Shown: positions 16,798 through 46,648, numbered from the stretch's first letter. The stretch: DNA of 64,000 nucleotides from Bacteroidota bacterium (GCA_013361065.1 JABWAK010000002.1:2273-66272), one strand, 5' to 3'. Program-made: numbers and translations. The notes: a model not told the origin generated them from the letters alone.

Positions 16798-17715
16798 ATG
16801 ACCTTAACAGATAAAATAAAATACAAGACAACATTTAAGCAGGCGCTTGATAACCTTGCCAACACACTTGTGAGTCACGTTTCGACAAGTGAAGGTGATT
16901 GGTCTATTAAGGGTTTTATTGATGTATACAAAAATATATATACGATTTCCTCTGACACTAAAATCATCTCAAAAATATTGGAGATTCATCTTTTCCCTCA
17001 AATAATTGAATTCGCTAAGAGCATCGATTATAAAATTGTCCTCGCTGAAAAGCAAAACTGGTATCCAGATCTAACATTTATCAACAATCATGATAACACG
17101 GTAAAATTTGCGGTAGATATTAAAACAACTTTCAGGCGGAAGAACAAAATAGCCGGATTTACACTCGGAAGTCATGGAGCTTATTTCAAAGAACGCGATA
17201 AAGACAAAAACATTCAGTTTCCATATAACCAGTATTCTGGTCATTTTTGTTTAGCGGTAATTTACACAAGAACTGACATTCATGGAGATATTCCTGAAGC
17301 GGATATTCTTCAAGTTCATGATTTACAAGAATCTTACGAACCTAATAGAAATACTGTAGGGACAAGGAAAATAACAAACGTAAAAAATTTAAAATCCATT
17401 ACATCTGTGATAAAAGATTTTGATATTTTTGCGGCGGAAAAATGGAAAATCGCTAGCGACAAACAAGGGTCGGGAAATACCGCAAATATTGGCTCAATAA
17501 TAGAAATCAACGATTTAAAGAATGAAAATGGCATTTTTAGCAAATTAGGTGAAGAGTGGTTTGATGAGTATTGGATAAATCACGGTTCTGCTAGAATGAT
17601 AAAGAAAGGAAAGTCAGTAAAAATTACTAATCTTAGAGATTATTTAATTTTTAAAGGAAAAGAAGACCTTTGGGAAAAAGTGGTTGGTAAAAAAAAGAAA
17701 GAAAAAGATAAATGA
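16798..17715 (+). CDS. Type II restriction endonuclease, EcoRV family (predicted GATATC)
   Basis: NWYPDLTF...FAVDIKTTF (PD-(D/E)xK) ...FPYNQYSGHFCLAVIYTR...EKWKIASDKQGSGNTANIGSI...ENGIFSKLGEEWFDEYW parallels R.EcoRV (NHYPDFTL...IAIDIKTTY...DKWVIAGDLAGSGNTTNIGSI), from recall; AT-rich. Confidence 0.8.
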   Translation: MTLTDKIKYKTTFKQALDNLANTLVSHVSTSEGDWSIKGFIDVYKNIYTISSDTKIISKILEIHLFPQIIEFAKSIDYKIVLAEKQNWYPDLTFINNHDNTVKFAVDIKTTFRRKNKIAGFTLGSHGAYFKERDKDKNIQFPYNQYSGHFCLAVIYTRTDIHGDIPEADILQVHDLQESYEPNRNTVGTRKITNVKNLKSITSVIKDFDIFAAEKWKIASDKQGSGNTANIGSIIEINDLKNENGIFSKLGEEWFDEYWINHGSARMIKKGKSVKITNLRDYLIFKGKEDLWEKVVGKKKKEKDK

Positions 17716-18638
17716 AAGTTGTGGTGCCCCCTATAAAAAGCCAAGGTATTAAAACCAAATTAGTGCCGTGGATCAAAGAAATTGCTCCAAAGGTGACCGG
17801 GCGATGGATAGAACCATTCCTTGGCACTGGTGTGGTAGCATTCAACTCTGGATATAAATCAGCTATTCTTAATGATACCAACCCACATATTATTAATTTT
17901 TACAAAGGTGTGCAGGCCGGGGTTATTACGGCGCCTCTAATGAAAAAATATTTAGAGCGTGAGGGCGAATTATTGAGTAGGGCTGATAATAATGGATATG
18001 AACATTATCTATCGGTGAGGAAGAGATTTAATTCTGGAGAGTACTCTCCTTATGATTTCATTTTTCTTTCCCGTGCTGGTTTTAATGGAATGATGCGATT
18101 TGGTAGTAAGGGAAATTGGAATATTCCGTTTTGTAAAAAGCCTGATCGGTTCGCCCAAGCTTATATAACCAAAATTACCAACCAGTTGTCTTCTGTCGCT
18201 CAAATAATTCAACCCGAACCACTTTGGAGTTTTCACAATAAAAATTTCACAGAAATCATTCCATTGGCTAAAGAACAAGATATAATTTATTGTGACCCTC
18301 CCTATTTTGGGAGACATGTCGACTATTATAACGGTTGGTCAGAGAAAGACGAAGAAACATTGTATTCACTTTTACATGAAACCAAGGCCAAATTTATTCT
18401 TTCTACATGGCATCATAATGAGTGGCGAGAAAATGATATGATAGCTAGATATTGGAATAAGTTTAATATTATTACAAAGGATCATTTTTATCACAATGGT
18501 GGAAGTATTGAGAATCGCAGAACCGTTGTGGAGGCTTTGGTGTGTAATTTTGACGTGAATAAATTTGAGACACATAATCATGGAGTTCAAAGCAAAGTAA
18601 AAGTTGAACAACTTGCTATATTTACAGAGTCTGTATAG
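17712..18638 (+). CDS. Dam-family N6-adenine DNA methyltransferase, M.EcoRV-like
   Basis: MKVVVPPIKSQGIKTKLVPWIKEIAP...EPFLGTGVVAFN (motif I) ...IYCDPPYFG (motif IV DPPY) ...STWHHNEWREN; near-collinear with M.EcoRV; 4-nt overlap with R gene. Confidence 0.85.
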   Translation: MKVVVPPIKSQGIKTKLVPWIKEIAPKVTGRWIEPFLGTGVVAFNSGYKSAILNDTNPHIINFYKGVQAGVITAPLMKKYLEREGELLSRADNNGYEHYLSVRKRFNSGEYSPYDFIFLSRAGFNGMMRFGSKGNWNIPFCKKPDRFAQAYITKITNQLSSVAQIIQPEPLWSFHNKNFTEIIPLAKEQDIIYCDPPYFGRHVDYYNGWSEKDEETLYSLLHETKAKFILSTWHHNEWRENDMIARYWNKFNIITKDHFYHNGGSIENRRTVVEALVCNFDVNKFETHNHGVQSKVKVEQLAIFTESV

Positions 18639-30703: not shown

Positions 30704-31477
30704 TCAACGCACCTGCATGCCGTTCTTGCAGTAAACGAGCATGGCGCGACTGAGGAATTGCGCCAGTCCCGGTGCATACGCATCATAGGTGGCGGTGAAC
30801 CGCGGGTCCTCCACATACATCGCCGCCAATCCCCGGTAGATCTCCTCCGTGACATCATAGAAGAATTCGATAGAGTTGCGATGCTCCTCCACGGCGCGCT
30901 GCACCTCGGCATCGGCCGGGTCCTTCGTCATCAGCAGCGCCAGCCGGCGGTGCAGGGCATCCGACCGCTCCTTGTATGCGCGCCACTGTTCCTTCGTCAG
31001 CGCCCGTACGCGCCGTTCGGATTCCGCAACACGCTCCTTCCCCCAGCGCATCTCTGCTTCCCCCTTGTATGCCGAGGCCTGCTCCGGTGTGAAGCCGTCG
31101 TACAATTCCTTGTCCGTGACCATGGTCGTTCCTTTCTCGATATCGTTCAACGTTCGTTCGATGGTGTGCAGCAGCACCGACAGCCGTCCCTGTTCCTTCT
31201 CGAGCTGCTCCCGATGGGACCGTAATGAAGCGGCAAGGTCGAACTCCGGATCATCCAGCACGCGGACGATCTCGCGCAGCGGGTATCCGAGCGCACTGTA
31301 GAACAGGATCTGCTGCAGACGGAGCAGGTCGTTCCGGTCATAGAGCCGGTACCGCTTCTCGCTCCGCTGCGACGGGACGAGGAGTCCCATGGCATCGTAA
31401 TGATGGAGCGTGCGGATGCTGACGCCGGAGAGCGCGGCAAGCCGGCGGACGGTATACAGGGTCGGTGCTGTTCCCAT
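30704..31477 (-). CDS. MerR-family transcriptional regulator with TipAS-like C-terminal domain
   Basis: YTVRRLAALSGVSIRTLHHYDAMGLL (MerR HTH) + C-terminal TipAS-like helical domain. Confidence 0.8.
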   Translation of the reverse strand: MGTAPTLYTVRRLAALSGVSIRTLHHYDAMGLLVPSQRSEKRYRLYDRNDLLRLQQILFYSALGYPLREIVRVLDDPEFDLAASLRSHREQLEKEQGRLSVLLHTIERTLNDIEKGTTMVTDKELYDGFTPEQASAYKGEAEMRWGKERVAESERRVRALTKEQWRAYKERSDALHRRLALLMTKDPADAEVQRAVEEHRNSIEFFYDVTEEIYRGLAAMYVEDPRFTATYDAYAPGLAQFLSRAMLVYCKNGMQVR

Positions 31478-31824
31478 GGAGGATGCTGATGAATGTGAAG
31501 GGTGTCTGTTCAGGGATTGCTGCATCACCCTACAAATATACGCACTGACGTTGCGTGAGGGTCAAGGGCGAATGGTCAAAAATTTACATTTTTTTCGGTT
31601 AGAATGTGCTCTGCGGGGATGCCGTTACCGCCGGAGATGCAGTAGTTGGCGATAGCGGTATATTTTTATTCTACACTGTTGCTTATCCGTGTCAAAAAGA
31701 TCAATTTACGGTATGAGATTGTGATGGGGGGGGCATTCCGTATAATTCACATTTAAATAAATAATCATTGATAAATTCTATCTAATCTTATGTTGGGCCG
31801 TTTTTCAACCAGAGAGTTGTTACC

Positions 31825-32694
31825 ATGAGATTGAAGTTCTTTTTAGTTCTGGTATTGGCCTTTTTTTGTCTTTCCAGTGAATTTGCACTTTCACAGGACT
31901 CAATTGAGGAGATCCCAATTGCTGGAGTGTGGACGTGTGACCGCCCACCCTACGGCATCGATACACTCATAATTTCCGGTGACAGAATAGTTCTCTCCTT
32001 TGTGGTGGAAGTCGGCGGTCAATCTCGTCATATTTACGGCCGAGTCATTAAAAGTGTGGCAGAGAAGAGCCAACTTGCTTACGAAATCTACAAGGTGATA
32101 GAAGGTAACGTAGTTGTCCCGTCAGCACCCGAACATCGGTTTATGGTATATGAAGTGGCAGAGACTGAGCTTTGGACATATACTGATTCTGGCGCATTTC
32201 CGGATCGCGCCTTCCTCAAAGCAAATGCCTACCGAAGTGCATGGCGAACGAAAGATATTCAGCCGTATTTGGTCCGATTCTATGAAAGCTCAAGTTCGGC
32301 ATGTATAGACTCCGTCCTCTATTCAATCTACGACCATCGAGGAGTAACGCGGGGATCGTCCTACGTGACCATTCCACCCAAGTTTATAGGAGGAGTACAG
32401 GCATATGACGCCTACTTCCAACAGGGATTCAACAGGCAAGAATCTCTTGATGGCATTTTCGGCATTGTGAGTGTCTCTTGTACAATAACCTGCAATGGAT
32501 CGGTATCCAATGTTGAAGTGGCAGAAGGTAGGATGAGCGTCCTCCTTCCTAAGACACTTGAATTACTCATGAAGTTAGTATCGGGAATGCCGAATTGGAT
32601 CCCCGCACTTAGTGACTACCGGAAAGTGCCCTGCAGAATAGAAATCCCTTTTGTTATCTCAGATGGCAGGCTGCGTGCGGGCCGTCCGCGATGA
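31825..32694 (+). CDS. Secreted hypothetical protein with C-terminal TonB_C-like domain; AT-rich island
   Basis: Signal peptide MRLKFFLVLVLAFFCLSSEFALSQ; C-terminus GIFGIVSVSCTITCNGSVSNVEVAEG...IPALSDYRKVPCRIEIPFVI resembles TonB C-terminal fold. Confidence 0.5.
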   Translation: MRLKFFLVLVLAFFCLSSEFALSQDSIEEIPIAGVWTCDRPPYGIDTLIISGDRIVLSFVVEVGGQSRHIYGRVIKSVAEKSQLAYEIYKVIEGNVVVPSAPEHRFMVYEVAETELWTYTDSGAFPDRAFLKANAYRSAWRTKDIQPYLVRFYESSSSACIDSVLYSIYDHRGVTRGSSYVTIPPKFIGGVQAYDAYFQQGFNRQESLDGIFGIVSVSCTITCNGSVSNVEVAEGRMSVLLPKTLELLMKLVSGMPNWIPALSDYRKVPCRIEIPFVISDGRLRAGRPR

Positions 32695-32907
32695 AACGGC
32701 CTAACAAGCGGCTCATGACTGACCCCGCAACCGCATTCCTGCCTGTCGGCAGGCATGCGCTCTGAAACTCAAGTGTTGAGTCGTCAGCATACAACTTAGG
32801 ATACGAAAGCTCATTTTATATACATGAGCACTGACCTCTGACCCTGAATGGTTACGGGATAGCTTATCCGCCATCCGATACATGATTGCTATTCTTAATA
32901 ATCCCCT

Positions 32908-33471
32908 ATGAAATATCAATCAACGCTAATCCTGCTGTTTATAGTGCTCCTTTCGCTTTTACATAATGGTTGTTATTCTCCTCAAACGAAGAGATCGGTA
33001 TTTATTTATAAAGGAATGGACTACACTGCATTTTGTGCAGATTCAGTCCGTGTATATTTATCAAATTGGTTTGATTCTACAATTCTTCATTCGGGGACCG
33101 ATAGTTGTAACGGATATTCAGGTGTTTCCTTCACTGATCCTGAACTTACTAATTTGTTAACCAGCGGTGAATTAACAGGAGAGATGTTTTGTAAAGCTAT
33201 TGAGAAACAAACGGGTGAGTACCCACGGCCTCAATTTGATTCATATTTAGGTGATTCCTATCATGATTCGCTAAACTCAGATTTAAATTGGCATGGTGGA
33301 TTGATTGTCGTGGTTCAATGGTTGAATAGATGTACCATTAACGGAGATCGACAAACCACGTTGTGTGTATCAATGAATAGGTTTGAGGTTGGAGGAGATT
33401 GTATGCTATTTTCTTTCACTATTAAGGATGATAAAATTAGAGACTTCAAGTATAAAGGATATATTCTTTAA
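32908..33471 (+). CDS. Hypothetical lipoprotein; AT-rich island
   Basis: Lipobox LLHNGC; no recognisable domain. Confidence 0.45.
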   Translation: MKYQSTLILLFIVLLSLLHNGCYSPQTKRSVFIYKGMDYTAFCADSVRVYLSNWFDSTILHSGTDSCNGYSGVSFTDPELTNLLTSGELTGEMFCKAIEKQTGEYPRPQFDSYLGDSYHDSLNSDLNWHGGLIVVVQWLNRCTINGDRQTTLCVSMNRFEVGGDCMLFSFTIKDDKIRDFKYKGYIL

Positions 33472-33701
33472 TTATTCTATTCTTTGCAATCGCTCTGCCA
33501 TATTAACAATGAACCCCGCATAGAAGCATTGCGGAACAGACAGTTGCAACTGTGGCCTCGAAAAAGTCCCAAGTGTCATGAAATCTAAACTCAACATACG
33601 ATTCGTCAGTATTCAGCATATTAAAAATAAAGCGCGTGGTCGCAGTAAAACGTCTTCACGTAGTTTAGTCGCCATCCGTTAGGCGGTTTCCGAGTATATC
33701 A

Positions 33702-34529
33702 ATGATAGACGAAAGAGTGATTAATATATATACTGACGGTTCGTCAAGGTCAACTCCTCGGCGCGGCGGTGTTGGAATAAGGTATATTTATGTAAACGAA
33801 AGTGGTGCGGAAATTTCGACCGATCTTAATTTACCTGGTTACCCTAATGCCACCAGTCAAGAAATGGAGTTACAAGCTTGCGTATTGGCATTGAATCATT
33901 TAGACGACTATCCTGACTTAGCAAGATTCACAAAAGTAGTGATTTACAGCGACTCCAAATACGTTGTTGACAATTTCCACAATGCTCTGTTTCGTTGGTC
34001 AAAGAATGGATGGACTCGAAAAGAAGGAGCTCCCGTGTTGAATGCCACTATTTGGAAGGAGCTATTAAAAGCTATTCGCAAATGCCGACGTAGGGTAGAA
34101 TTCACTAAAGTAAAGGGTCACTCGACAGACCCTCACAATAAAGCAGTGGACAAACTCGCTAAGATATCCTCTTCAATACCATTTAATCAGGCACTTTCAC
34201 CAACAATTGTTCGACGCAAGATGTCTGATCGAAAAACTAAAATTGGCAGTGTGCTTGCAATCGGCCAAAGAATTACAATTCGAATTGTCCAAAGTCAATA
34301 CTTGCGAGAACAAAAGTTGTATCGATATCGATATGAAGTGATGTCTAAATCTAGTCCATTCTACAAGAATGTGGATTTTGCTGTCACTGAACATATCTTG
34401 CGAGAAGCGCATACATATTCTGTTCGAATAAATTCTGAACAAGCTAATCCAAGGATTGTCAAAGTATTCAGAGAGACGATCCCAAACGCGGTTAACAAGG
34501 CAAAGAGAAATGATAATAAAACTGCTTAA
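33702..34529 (+). CDS. RNase HI domain fused to an uncharacterised ~125-aa C-terminal domain; AT-rich island
   Basis: INIYTDGSS...SQEMELQA...VVIYSDSKYVV...VKGHSTDPHNKAVDKLAK gives all five RNase HI catalytic positions (D,E,D,H,D); C-terminal 125 aa unassigned. Confidence 0.7.
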   Translation: MIDERVINIYTDGSSRSTPRRGGVGIRYIYVNESGAEISTDLNLPGYPNATSQEMELQACVLALNHLDDYPDLARFTKVVIYSDSKYVVDNFHNALFRWSKNGWTRKEGAPVLNATIWKELLKAIRKCRRRVEFTKVKGHSTDPHNKAVDKLAKISSSIPFNQALSPTIVRRKMSDRKTKIGSVLAIGQRITIRIVQSQYLREQKLYRYRYEVMSKSSPFYKNVDFAVTEHILREAHTYSVRINSEQANPRIVKVFRETIPNAVNKAKRNDNKTA

Positions 34530-34844
34530 CCATATCATAATAGAACCCCGAATAGAACCATTGCGGGGCAAACCCCGCCCAACAACGGCAGGACGGGCTC
34601 GTCAAAAAAAATTAATCCCCGTTCGCATCATGCAGCACAATGATGCGTTCAATATCCCTTGAAGCTGCACAATTTCCATCCTGCCGCCCGGCCAACGTTT
34701 GTCCTCATGACGGTATCTGACTGCGGCGGCGATCCCCGGGGCGGCCGGTACCGCCGTACAGCGGAAATCGCGAAAATTCCGTATATTATGGTAGTTTCTT
34801 TCCGTCCGGTACCGGACAGTATCGTCCAATAACTTAGGGTTCCC

Positions 34845-35345
34845 ATGATCAAACGTCTCCTCGTTCACGCACTCGCTGCGGTCCTCATCCTTGCCGCTGC
34901 CAAACAGTTCGACCGGCCCGTGAAGAACGATTCGAATGACCAGACCCGTCATTTTTCGACGCAATTCCCCATTCCGGACAGCGTGGAAGCGATCCTCACC
35001 GTGGCGTGCTACGACTGCCACAGCAACAATACCCGGTACCCCTGGTATGCCGAGATCCAGCCGATCGGCGGGATGATCAATGACCATGTGGTGCACGGCA
35101 AGAAGGAGCTGAACTTCTCCGAGTTCGCATCGTACCGTCCCCGCAAACAGTTCCACAAGATGGAAGAGGTGGCGGAACTGGTGCGCGACAGCCTGATGCC
35201 GATCGCCGATTACCTGAAGATGCACGAGGATGCCGTGCTGACCGACGCACAGCGGCAGACCATCTATGCCTGGGTAAGCGCCACGCACGACTCCATGCGC
35301 GCACTCTATCCGCCGGACAGCCTGAAAGCGCGCCGCCGCCCATAA
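34845..35345 (+). CDS. Haem-binding-domain protein (Haem_bd, CxxCH)
   Basis: Signal peptide; VACYDCHSN motif. Confidence 0.7.
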   Translation: MIKRLLVHALAAVLILAAAKQFDRPVKNDSNDQTRHFSTQFPIPDSVEAILTVACYDCHSNNTRYPWYAEIQPIGGMINDHVVHGKKELNFSEFASYRPRKQFHKMEEVAELVRDSLMPIADYLKMHEDAVLTDAQRQTIYAWVSATHDSMRALYPPDSLKARRRP

Positions 35346-46193: not shown

Positions 46194-46620
46194 TAATTAT
46201 CAAGATTGAAAGATTATCAAGATTACAAGATTCAAAAAAACGGAAACACATAGAAACAGAGGAAGCATAGAAGAACAGTAAAGCAATTGAAAGATTATCA
46301 AGATTACAAGATTATCAAGATGGCAAGATTCAAATAGCGGAAACACATCGGAACATAGGAAACATAGAAGAGCGGAAATGCGATTGAAAGATTATCAAAA
46401 TTGCAAGATTCAAAAACGGAAACACATAGGAACATAGGAAACATAGAAGAACGGTAAAGCAATTGAAAGATTATCAAGATTACAAGATTCAAAAAACGGA
46501 AACACATAGAAACATAGGAAACATAGAAGAGCGGAAAAGCAATTGAAAGATTATCAAGATTACAAGATTCAAAAAACGGAAACACATAGAAACATAGGAA
46601 ACATAGAAGAGCGGAAAAGC
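46194..46620. repeat. AT-rich tandem repeat: 5 copies of a ~80-bp unit directly upstream of the MDR dehydrogenase gene
   Basis: Unit GCAATTGAAAGATTATCAAGATTACAAGATTCAAAAAACGGAAACACATAGAAACATAGGAAACATAGAAGAGCGGAAAA; copies 4 and 5 identical; internal CAAGATT and GAAACATA sub-repeats. Confidence 0.95.
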
Positions 46621-46648
46621 GAAAACATTGAATGAAGGATGGACCACG

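What the first reader, a model, noticed from the sequence alone, without database searches (positions are those of the whole stretch)
31540..34610. AT-rich 3-gene island encoding a TonB_C-like secreted protein, a lipoprotein and an RNase HI fusion, each followed by a related hairpin motif
Region 31540-34610 is strongly AT-rich relative to its flanks (MerR gene upstream, Haem_bd gene downstream). Gene 3 (33702-34529) encodes a catalytically intact RNase HI domain (D, E, D, H, D all present) fused to an uncharacterised ~125-aa C-terminal domain (...KIGSVLAIGQRITIRIVQSQYLREQKLYRYRYEV...). I do not recognise this architecture. The RNase H gene is flanked by imperfect ~25-bp direct repeats: GAACCCCGCATAGAAGCATTGCGG at about 33510 and GAACCCCGAATAGAACCATTGCGGGG at about 34545. 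A weaker relative, GACCCCGCAACCGCATTCC, sits next to a GCCTG-tcgg-CAGGC hairpin after gene 1 (about 32720-32760). Gene-by-gene, cassette-like organisation with a shared downstream element is reminiscent of mobile cassettes or a small defence/competition island. A G8 homopolymer (31726-31733) lies in the promoter region of gene 1.
Basis: partly seen in the sequence, partly recalled or inferred. Interest (0 to 1): 0.7.

Follow-up and report, generated by a model that had tools for sequence, protein, structure and literature searches.

The report
Decayed integron cassette array with RNase H–OB
The AT-rich island is a short, integrase-less and partly decayed array of three integron-type gene cassettes, one of which carries a widespread but undescribed RNase HI fused to a basic OB-fold domain; the "hairpin repeats" are remnants of the cassettes' recombination sites.

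Summary
In detail: a low-GC (0.38-0.48 versus ~0.60) three-gene island, an intact RNase HI with an extra C-terminal domain, and a 44-nt direct repeat flanking it. The island is best read as three integron-type gene cassettes without an integrase (CALIN-like). Each gene's nearest homolog lies in a different cassette array (L171, L172, L001/L092), and the homology blocks start and stop at GTTRRRY/RYYYAAC cores. A profile and a covariance model built only from attC sites outside the window hit the window once, at 33526-33684, ending at GTTAGGC 17 nt before the RNase H start codon. The window's sites are long (159-185 nt) and degenerate (GTT>GAT in one), so probably no longer recombine. The D1 repeat is neither a generic terminator nor a canonical attC. 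A related array has g2 plus a single chimeric D1 and no RNase H gene, so D1 marks the boundaries of an insertion or deletion. The C-terminal domain is a strongly basic OB fold found almost only in this fusion (>1,100 proteins, at least 10 phyla; at least 12% recognisable cassettes). It matches no Pfam, PADLOC or PDB entry, and I found no paper on it. A defence role is untested.

The parts
31529..31791 (.). AT-rich junction between the MerR/TipAS gene and cassette 1. It holds predicted divergent sigma-70-like promoters (+ strand 31719-31746, - strand 31695-31668) and the G8 run (31726-31733) inside the + promoter's spacer. Its origin (host or island) is unresolved.
   Evidence: no homology to any fetched locus
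31792..31798 (+). R'-type core GTTGGGC, the 5' boundary of cassette 1 (G|TTGGGC). Homology to the L171 cassette begins exactly here.
31825..32694 (+). g1: 289-aa secreted protein (signal peptide) with a sub-threshold TonB_C-like C-terminus. Near-orphan: only 2 other homologs in 5.8 billion proteins. The 68% homolog is a cassette in an array with at least 8 attC sites (L171).
32699..32883 (+). attC1 (type A, 185 nt, degenerate): R'' GCCTAAC (32699-32705), then AAGCG, then GCTCATGAC; the 3' end is TAGCTTATCCGCC-ATCC-GATACAT, where R' is mutated from GTT to GAT (32877-32883).
   Evidence: Full-length covariance-model match, 5.6 bits, E 0.28, second best in the island. 5' end homologous to L171 and 3' end to L172. 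Own R-box with 31792-31804: 11 Watson-Crick + 2 G.T of 13.
32908..33471 (+). g2: 187-aa probable lipoprotein, near-orphan (3 other homologs). The 83% homolog in L172 is preceded by a bona fide type-A attC.
33498..33541 (+). Its last ~16 nt overlap the start of attC2.
33526..33684 (+). attC2 (type A, 159 nt): degenerate R'' and canonical R' GTTAGGC (33678-33684). Cassette 3 starts after G33678.
   Evidence: Only window hit of the attC profile built from sites outside the window (nhmmer E 6.6e-5; 3'-end profile E 3.6e-4) and of covariance model R1 (16.1 bits, E 0.004 over 128 kb). 84% identical to the attC upstream of the L001 homolog.
33702..34529 (+). g3: 275-aa RNase HI (residues 7-154) fused to a C-terminal basic OB-fold domain (residues ~165-262, nt ~34194-34487).
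34524..34530 (+). R''-type core GCTTAAC overlapping the g3 stop codon. It pairs with the cassette's own 5' end: GTTAGGCGGTTTC / AAAACTGCTTAAC, 10 Watson-Crick + 2 G.T of 13. It sits at the same position as GCCTAAC in L091 and L092.
34530..34573 (+).
34520..34653 (+). Complete 'type-B' element after g3, homologous to the element after the g2 homolog in L172. It ends at GTTCAAT (34647-34653), where homology stops: the probable right edge of the island. It folds as several local hairpins, not as a canonical attC.

Best explanation
WHAT IT IS. The island (about 31792-34650) is a remnant array of three integron-type gene cassettes with no integron integrase nearby (a CALIN-like cluster). It sits between the MerR/TipAS and Haem_bd genes of a GC-rich Bacteroidota-type genome. 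Each unit is one ORF plus a downstream recombination-site element. The units were assembled independently: g1, g2 and g3 each have their closest relatives in different arrays.

THE REPEATS. The spacers are long (159-185 nt), diverged copies of an attC family whose intact members form an R-box, an unpaired spacer and an L-box with an extrahelical base. In the window these sites are decayed (GTT>GAT in attC1, degenerate R'' in attC2), so the array is probably frozen. The D1 repeats flanking the RNase H gene are the similar 5' parts of two successive cassette-3' elements. Comparison with an array that has g2 but no RNase H gene shows that the RNase H unit (type-A attC plus g3) was gained or lost by recombination at these repeats.

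THE CARGO. g3 is a catalytically intact type-1 RNase H. Its C-terminal, strongly basic OB-fold domain most likely binds single-stranded nucleic acid next to an RNA:DNA hybrid (the displaced strand of an R-loop, or a primer or Okazaki junction), tethering the nuclease to its substrate.

SHOWN VERSUS INFERRED. Shown: the cassette architecture, the homology to attC arrays, the RNase H active site, the OB fold, its basic charge, and its exclusivity to this fusion. Inferred: nucleic-acid binding by the OB domain, loss of recombination competence, and any cellular role.
For: ISLAND AND CASSETTE BOUNDARIES. (1) Low GC. (2) Homology blocks coincide with cassette units: 31792-32715 matches L171 and starts at the G of GTTGGGC; 32860-33534 matches L172; 33561-34474 matches L001. 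(3) L171, L092 and L172 are true arrays. L092 has 7 near-identical ~152-nt attC sites and L171 at least 8. Each cassette's 5' end is complementary to its own R''.

ATTC HOMOLOGY AND STRUCTURE. (4) Seeds from outside the window fold as R-box / spacer / L-box with an extrahelical base, with compensatory changes at 4 pairs. (5) The nhmmer profile and covariance model built from those seeds hit the window only at 33526-33684 (E 6.6e-5; 16.1 bits, E 0.004). The predicted attC1 is the next best hit in the island. The model gives no false positives in 1.55 Mb of loci. (6) Own R-box pairing is 13/13 and 12/13 (including G.T) for cassettes 1 and 3, positioned at the ORF boundaries; the background rate is 0.2% per pair.

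FAMILY CONTEXT. (7) Family members sit between textbook attC sites in L048 and L039. 15 of 105 loci show cassette brackets against 2.6 expected. (8) g1 and g2 are near-orphans. (9) L172's single D1 is a chimera of the window's two copies.

Against: No IntI-like integrase was found in the 64-kb window or on any fetched array contig. Only one of the three window sites is statistically significant; attC1 scores 5.6 bits (E 0.28), and the element after g3 is not recognised by the model and does not fold as a single bulged hairpin. The arm-duplex energies of the window sites are weak (-6 to -7 kcal/mol, against about -16 for genuine sites). Site lengths exceed the classical 57-141 nt (that range is from my own knowledge). 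The D1 indel is not what canonical G|TT exchange would produce. No empty-site genome of the same species was found. The OB assignment is at fold level only (Foldseek best E 5.6e-3), and NTR/TIMP-like non-nucleic-acid OB folds score similarly.
Confidence: 0.8

Rival explanations
1. The island is a three-gene anti-phage or competition system (secreted TonB_C-like protein + lipoprotein + RNase H fusion) whose genes work together, and the shared hairpins are regulatory or terminator elements.
For: The genes are on the same strand, tightly arranged and low in GC. A distant family member lies next to DUF5343 and HEPN_Swt1 genes on an integrative element. Integron cassettes are known to carry phage-defence genes (titles and abstracts listed).
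Against: None of the three proteins matches PADLOC. The three genes never co-occur elsewhere: the g1 homolog (L171), the g2 homologs (L172, L173) and more than 120 g3 homologs all have different neighbours. g1 and g2 have only 2-3 homologs each, while g3 has more than 1,100.
Confidence: 0.05
2. The RNase H gene was inserted by a transposition-like event that duplicated about 45 nt of target (the D1 repeats are a target-site duplication), independent of integron biology.
For: Direct repeats flank the gene. L172 looks like an 'empty site' with one chimeric D1 copy. IS3-like fragments lie near the closest homolog in L001.
Against: The two copies are only 77% identical, and each is about as far from the L172 copy as from the other. 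No transposase or terminal inverted repeats lie within the unit. The inserted segment begins with a complete type-A attC ending in GTTAGGC, and the ORF is bracketed by GTTAGGCGG / GCTTAAC as in the array cassettes L091 and L092. A 45-nt duplication is atypical for known transposases (my own knowledge).
Confidence: 0.07
3. g3 is simply this organism's housekeeping RNase HI with a lineage-specific accessory domain, and the flanking repeats are generic genome-wide terminators or REP-like elements.
For: The RNase H domain is a standard type-1 enzyme. Some homologs sit between ordinary genes with ameliorated GC (L005, L015, L023).
Against: Gene GC is 0.40 against 0.60 for the host. The closest homolog (86%) is in a different context. 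The distribution across at least 10 phyla is patchy, with gene GC often far below flank GC. The repeat motif occurs only twice in 64 kb and not in the GC-rich remainder. There is no T-tract, and the terminator scan found nothing at these sites.
Confidence: 0.05

Closest known systems
Clusters of attC sites lacking an integron integrase (CALIN) / sedentary chromosomal integron cassette arrays (e.g. Vibrio VCR arrays)
   Same: Same-strand single-ORF units separated by imperfect palindromic sites bounded by RYYYAAC...GTTRRRY. Sites within one array are highly similar (L092, L171). Each cassette's 5' end pairs with its own R''. The cargo is mostly orphan genes, and the composition is foreign. CALINs are regarded as degraded integrons (PMC9024848). 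High attC homogeneity within an integron and integration outside integrons are described in PMC12614218.
   Different: No integrase was found. The window's sites are longer (159-185 nt) than classical attC sites and are decayed. There are only three cassettes. The host is a Bacteroidota-type MAG, a group in which integrons are reported as rare. The D1 / 'type-B' element is not a canonical attC.
Bacterial RNase HI (E. coli RnhA, PDB 1RCH/2RN2; best solved match 3H08)
   Same: The whole catalytic domain, including the DEDD+H residues and the Trp/Lys-rich region corresponding to the basic protrusion, aligns over residues 4-160.
   Different: About 115 extra C-terminal residues form a basic OB barrel, which is absent from all solved RNase H chains.
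RNase H1 with an N-terminal hybrid-binding domain (eukaryotic RNase H1; some bacterial RNase HI)
   Same: Concept: an RNase H catalytic core plus an accessory nucleic-acid-binding domain joined by a basic linker, which increases substrate affinity (my own knowledge of RNase H1).
   Different: The accessory domain here is C-terminal, has an OB fold (not the HBD alpha/beta fold), and has no sequence similarity to any Pfam family. Full-length human RNase H1 (6VRD) matches only the catalytic part.
Phage-resistance integron cassettes (preprint 10.1101/2024.07.02.601719)
   Same: Single-gene cassettes of unknown function carried by integrons; nucleic-acid-targeting enzymes are plausible defence effectors.
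   Different: No experimental or PADLOC link exists for RNase H-OB. Two cassette-survey papers searched for 'RNase H' and 'ribonuclease' gave no mention.

Membership tests
Integron gene cassette / attC site | RYYYAAC (R'') after the ORF and GTTRRRY (R') before the next ORF, in alternating order | tested here: met
   In the intergenic parts of the island: R' at 31792, (32877 mutated to GAT), 33678; R'' at 32699, 34524, 34577. Only 3 strict R''-R' pairs 50-230 nt apart exist in 64 kb, and 2 of them lie in the island spacers. Caveat: attC1's R' and attC2's R'' are degenerate.
Integron gene cassette / attC site | The cassette's own 5' end (after G|TT) is complementary to its own R'' region | tested here: met
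   Cassette 1: 11 Watson-Crick + 2 G.T of 13. Cassette 3: 10 + 2 of 13. Cassette 2: only 7 of 13. Background: 0.2% of pairs reach 12 or more. The same rule is perfect in L039, L091, L092, L110 and L171.
Integron gene cassette / attC site | Single bulged hairpin: R-box, unpaired central spacer, L-box with extrahelical base(s) | tested here: inconclusive
   Met, with covariation, in the 13 seeds from outside the window and in L048 and L039. In the window, attC2 keeps 13 of 17 model pairs and attC1 12 of 17; arm-duplex energies are weak; the element after g3 does not fold this way.
Integron gene cassette / attC site | Sequence and structure homology to attC sites of bona fide arrays | tested here: met
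   nhmmer E 6.6e-5 and covariance model 16.1 bits (E 0.004) for 33526-33684, the only window hits. attC1 is only suggestive (E 0.28). blastn blocks match L171, L172 and L001.
Integron gene cassette / attC site | Classical attC length of about 57-141 nt (range from my own knowledge) | tested here: not met
   The window sites are 159 and 185 nt. The related bona fide family is 126-204 nt.
Complete integron | intI integrase adjacent to the array, with attI and Pc | tested here: not met
attI and Pc are not testable. The window is 64 kb of a 98.6-kb contig.
CALIN (cluster of attC sites lacking an integrase) | At least 2 attC sites with no integrase nearby (IntegronFinder 2 definition, PMC9024848) | tested here: inconclusive
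   One significant site, one weak full-length site and one atypical element. IntegronFinder itself could not be run.
Type-1 RNase H (PF00075) | Domain match above the gathering score, and the Asp-Glu-Asp-(His)-Asp active site | tested here: met
   110.6 bits against a cut-off of 25.8. D12, E56, D84 and H140 are invariant and D150 is at least 90% conserved. Aligned to 3H08 and E. coli RNase HI.
RNase H1 with hybrid-binding domain | N-terminal HBD (dsRHbd) | tested here: not met
   The RNase H domain starts at residue 7. The extra domain is C-terminal, has an OB fold, and has no Pfam match.
OB-fold nucleic-acid-binding domains | Five-stranded closed beta-barrel; binding of single-stranded nucleic acid | tested here: inconclusive
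Known anti-phage defence systems (PADLOC-DB 2.0) | Match to a defence-system protein model | tested here: not met
   0 families for g1, g2 and g3 at E <= 0.1.
TonB C-terminal domain (g1) | PF03544 above the gathering score | tested here: inconclusive
   20.9 bits against a cut-off of 24.6, E 5e-4; TIGR01352 13.7 bits against 27.1.

The most novel reading that the evidence does not exclude
RNase HI-OB is a previously unrecognised single-gene mobile effector, spread by integrons across at least 10 phyla. It would act in genetic conflict, for example by using its OB domain to find R-loops, primer junctions or reverse-transcription intermediates of phages and plasmids and then destroying the RNA strand (defence), or conversely by dismantling host RNA-guided or retron-type defences (anti-defence). 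A secondary novelty is an undescribed family of long (150-200 nt) attC sites in Bacteroidota-type arrays whose integrase is unknown.
Probability: 0.2. Interest if true: 0.7.

Novelty: new variant of a known kind. Interest (0 to 1): 0.45.

Why it matters
The result explains the island as an ordinary kind of element (integron cassettes stranded without an integrase), so the 'defence island' reading should be dropped. It also brings out two things of moderate value. First, it defines an RNase HI fused to a family-specific basic OB domain: more than 1,100 sequences, with no Pfam model for the extra domain, no solved structure and no paper found. This family is recurrent integron cargo in very different phyla, which implies a portable, self-sufficient and selectable function for an RNA:DNA-hybrid nuclease. 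Second, it documents long attC-type sites and cassette arrays in Bacteroidota-type genomes, where integrons are reported to be rare, together with a natural with/without pair for the RNase H unit (window versus L172). If the enzyme proves to act on phage or plasmid replication intermediates, it would add a very simple new class to cassette-borne defence.

Tried and rejected
SEARCHES WITH NO USEFUL RESULT
- Rfam at permissive E-value over 30.5-36 kb: no hit.
- tRNA scan as a possible integration target: none in the window.
- PADLOC: nothing. PHROGs: only the RNase H half matches.
- Terminator scan: nothing at the repeats.
- Exact-protein look-ups of the flanking genes, to find an empty site: Haem_bd gave only a 1-kb contig that ends at window position 34776; the MerR protein, with my chosen start codon, is not on record.
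The viral structure set matched only the RNase H half.
- Literature searches for RNase H cassettes and for RNase HI-OB fusions found nothing relevant.

INTERPRETATIONS TRIED AND DROPPED
- My first reading of the spacers as short classical attC sites (32699-32781 and 33589-33684, from the strict core scan). They do not fold as attC, and homologs show the true units are the full 159-185-nt spacers.
- GCCCAAC (34577) as R'' of cassette 3. GCTTAAC at the stop codon matches the position in L091 and L092 and pairs better.
- A 5'-end attC profile found nothing in the window.
- Target-site duplication by a transposase, judged unlikely (see rival explanations).
- Reading D1 as a stable hairpin or terminator: z-scores are only -0.85 and -2.07.
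Full report
1. OBSERVATION

The island is real. GC falls to 0.375-0.50 between about 31600 and 34600, against 0.58-0.65 on both sides. Three + strand ORFs lie between a MerR/TipAS regulator (30704-31528, - strand) and a Haem_bd protein (34845-35345):
- g1, 31825-32694, 289 aa;
- g2, 32908-33471, 187 aa;
- g3, 33702-34529, 275 aa.

g3 residues 7-154 are a type-1 RNase H (PF00075, E 9e-32). The remaining ~120 residues match nothing in Pfam, NCBIfam, PHROGs, PADLOC or PDB sequences.

The direct repeat flanking g3 is 44 nt long (33498-33541 and 34530-34573, 77% identical). The 24-nt core has two matches in the window and none in 100 shuffles. The G8 run (31726-31733) lies inside the spacer of a predicted TTGTGA-16-TATAAT promoter.

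The TonB_C match of g1 is below threshold. NCBI names the source a 'MAG: Bacteroidetes bacterium'.

2. THE RNASE H FUSION IS A WIDESPREAD, UNDESCRIBED FAMILY

A search of 5.8 billion proteins returns more than 1,100 hits. The best 120 are 258-309 aa long and cover 91-100% of g3. One genome per species gives about 50 full-length members in Nitrospirota, Actinomycetota, Chloroflexota, Planctomycetota, Bacteroidota, Ignavibacteria, Beta- and Gammaproteobacteria (including the isolate Ramlibacter montanisoli B156), Myxococcota, Desulfobacterota, Spirochaetota and CPR lineages. Gene GC is often far below flank GC, for example 0.38 versus 0.61 in L048.

D12, E56, D84 and H140 are invariant and D150 nearly so. 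The closest solved structures (3H08, then E. coli RNase HI) align only to residues 4-160.

AlphaFold models are confident: pLDDT 92 and pTM 0.86 for the full length, and pLDDT 85 for the C-terminal part alone. The C-terminal domain is a five-stranded barrel plus a helix.
- Foldseek agrees on the fold class but finds no close relative (best E 5.6e-3).
- The domain is strongly basic (median pI 10.2, net charge +12).
- It has conserved VRRK, GQ, R194, Y211-E-V, D225, H237, Y239, N244 and N249-P250 positions.

A profile of the domain, searched against 1.84 billion representative proteins, finds only 327 clusters. Almost all are C-terminal domains of ~260-290-aa RNase H proteins; one is an RNase H-OB-GNAT fusion. 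No viral protein in BFVD has both domains.

3. WHAT THE REPEATS ARE

The lead came from the 86% homolog (L001). There the ~140 nt upstream of the gene are homologous to the window's spacer, and '...CAGTTTA.TTCCAGTCC-GTTAGG' recurs before two consecutive genes. GTTAGGC fits GTTRRRY (the attC R' core), and RYYYAAC cores follow the stops of g1 and g3.

Family members lie between textbook attC sites in L048 (Sulfuricaulis) and L039 (a betaproteobacterium), with extrahelical bases and single-hairpin folds.

In L092 (57% homolog) the gene is one cassette of an array with seven near-identical ~152-nt sites: GCCTAAC-CAGTC-GCTCAAGCTGACGG...CCGCAGCTTAGCTCC-GGTCC-GTTAGGC.

Across the family, 15 of 105 distinct loci have a 13-nt 5' end that pairs at 11 or more positions with the region ending in their own R''. 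About 2.6 are expected from permuted flanks.

4. THE WINDOW'S THREE GENES ARE THREE INDEPENDENT CASSETTES

g1 has only two other homologs and g2 only three. These lie in arrays.
- L171 has at least 8 sites of the same attC family. Its g1 homolog is bracketed by GTTAGGCCGTTTT... and ...AAAACGGCCTAAC-AAGTC-GCTCAAGCC, matching the window's GTTGGGCCGTTTT... and ...AACGGCCTAAC-AAGCG-GCTCATGAC.
- In L172 the g2 homolog is preceded by ...GTAGCTTAGCCGCC-ATCC-GTTAAATGATTGCTATTC, matching the window's ...ATAGCTTATCCGCC-ATCC-GATACATGATTGCTATTC. The window's R' therefore carries a GTT>GAT change.

blastn blocks coincide with cassette units:
- 31792-32715 matches L171 and starts at the G of GTTGGGC;
- 32860-33534 matches L172;
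- 33561-34474 matches L001.

5. INDEPENDENT TESTS OF ATTC MEMBERSHIP

Thirteen sites from outside the window (L171, L172, L092, L001) give an RNAalifold consensus of R-box, unpaired spacer and L-box with an unpaired base. Four pairs show compensatory changes, for example GC:8/CG:3/GU:2.

An nhmmer profile built from sites outside the window hits the window once, at 33625-33684 (E 6.6e-5). The 3'-end profile hits 33658-33684 (E 3.6e-4).

Covariance model R1 hits the whole window once: 33526-33684, 16.1 bits, E about 0.004. With filters off, the next best hit in the island is a full-length match at 32699-32883 (5.6 bits, E 0.28), exactly the predicted attC1. In 1.55 Mb of other loci, R1 hits only the seed arrays plus two independent L091 sites.

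The window sites keep only 12-13 of 17 model pairs, and their arms pair weakly (-6 to -7 kcal/mol, against about -16 for genuine sites). They are decayed.

No IntI-like gene is present in the window or on any fetched contig. The best label is therefore a CALIN-like remnant, a category regarded as degraded integrons. Integrons are reported as rare in Bacteroidetes (PMC9024848).

6. THE D1 REPEAT

D1 occurs only in the window (twice) and in L172 (once) within 1.6 Mb. In L172 it follows the g2 homolog.

The DNA after the window's g3 (34520-34570 and 34596-34644) is homologous to the DNA after L172's g2 homolog. In a three-way alignment, L172's single copy matches the window's copy 1 to the left of 'CATAGAA' at 26 of 31 informative sites, and matches copy 2 to the right of 'GCGGGG' at nearly all sites.

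L172 therefore equals the window minus about 33535-34519, which is the type-A attC plus g3. The D1 repeats mark an insertion or deletion of the RNase H unit by recombination between similar cassette-3' elements.

This 'type-B' element begins at the R'' position (GCTTAAC in g3; degenerate in g2 and L172) and ends at a GTT (34647-34653), where homology stops. However, it folds as several local hairpins and is not a canonical attC. Its nature is the least certain part of the analysis.

7. MECHANISM

Shown:
- the cassette architecture and the homology to attC arrays;
- an intact RNase H active site;
- an OB-fold domain that is basic and specific to this fusion.

Inferred:
- the OB domain binds single-stranded nucleic acid next to RNA:DNA hybrids and tethers the nuclease, analogous in concept to the hybrid-binding domain of RNase H1 (my own knowledge);
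- the cassettes are now immobile;
- expression probably comes from the promoter-like region at 31719-31746.

A defence role is possible but has no direct support: PADLOC is negative, and only one distant homolog sits next to HEPN/DUF5343 genes.

8. VERDICT

The 'mobile cassettes' reading is right; the 'three-gene defence island' reading is not supported. The island is an ordinary kind of element (an integron cassette remnant) in an unusual host group, with unusually long sites. The RNase HI-OB protein is an undescribed but widespread variant of RNase HI. Interest is moderate.

Noticed in passing
window 16798-18638: A second low-GC island (GC 0.35-0.42) encodes an EcoRV-family restriction endonuclease (PF09233, E 1e-99) overlapping a D12-class N6-adenine DNA methyltransferase (PF02086, E 1e-41). 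This is a type II restriction-modification pair, evidently acquired horizontally.
   Followed up: partly
window 46196-46620: An AT-rich tandem array: an 80-nt unit x 3.9 copies (93% matches) at 46308-46620, preceded by related 97-nt-period copies from 46196, in the intergenic region before the ORF at 46628. Function unknown.
   Followed up: partly
window 31726-31733: The G8 homopolymer lies in the 16-nt spacer of the predicted + strand promoter (TTGTGA 31719-24 / TATAAT 31741-46) upstream of cassette 1. Slippage would change the spacer length, so phase-variable expression of the array is conceivable. A strong divergent promoter (TTGACA/TAGAAT, 31695-31668) faces the MerR gene.
   Followed up: no
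L009 5812-8067 and L010 8001-10256: A 51% homolog of the RNase H-OB gene sits directly upstream of a DUF5343 + HEPN_Swt1 gene pair, on an element with a large serine recombinase and a REP_ORF2-G2P replication initiator. This is a non-integron mobile context.
   Followed up: no
protein P0224 (400 aa): An RNase H-OB protein with an additional C-terminal GNAT acetyltransferase domain. It may be a read-through fusion of two adjacent cassettes.
   Followed up: no
L171 1430-1898: Two type-A attC sites only ~340 nt apart start to start (126 nt each). This implies a very short, probably ORF-less cassette of ~220 nt in that array.
   Followed up: no
L004 (1032-nt contig), window 34776-35000: An independent assembly carrying the identical Haem_bd gene ends 69 nt upstream of it, ~125 nt from the island's right edge. 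This is consistent with an assembly break at a strain-variable or repeated region.
   Followed up: no
window 32512-32524 and 33495-33507: GTTGAAGTGGCAG (inside g1) and CTGCCATATTAAC (at the start of D1 copy 1) pair at 12 of 13 positions. This is probably chance (17 such pairs occur in the window) but it involves the D1 region.
   Followed up: no
L035 8879-8995; L119 3524-4198: Generic tyrosine-recombinase-like ORFs lie close to RNase H-OB genes in a Burkholderiales MAG and in a metagenome contig (weak similarity to IntI1: 36% over 39 aa in L035, 26% over 273 aa in L119). They are not integron integrases by this screen.
   Followed up: no
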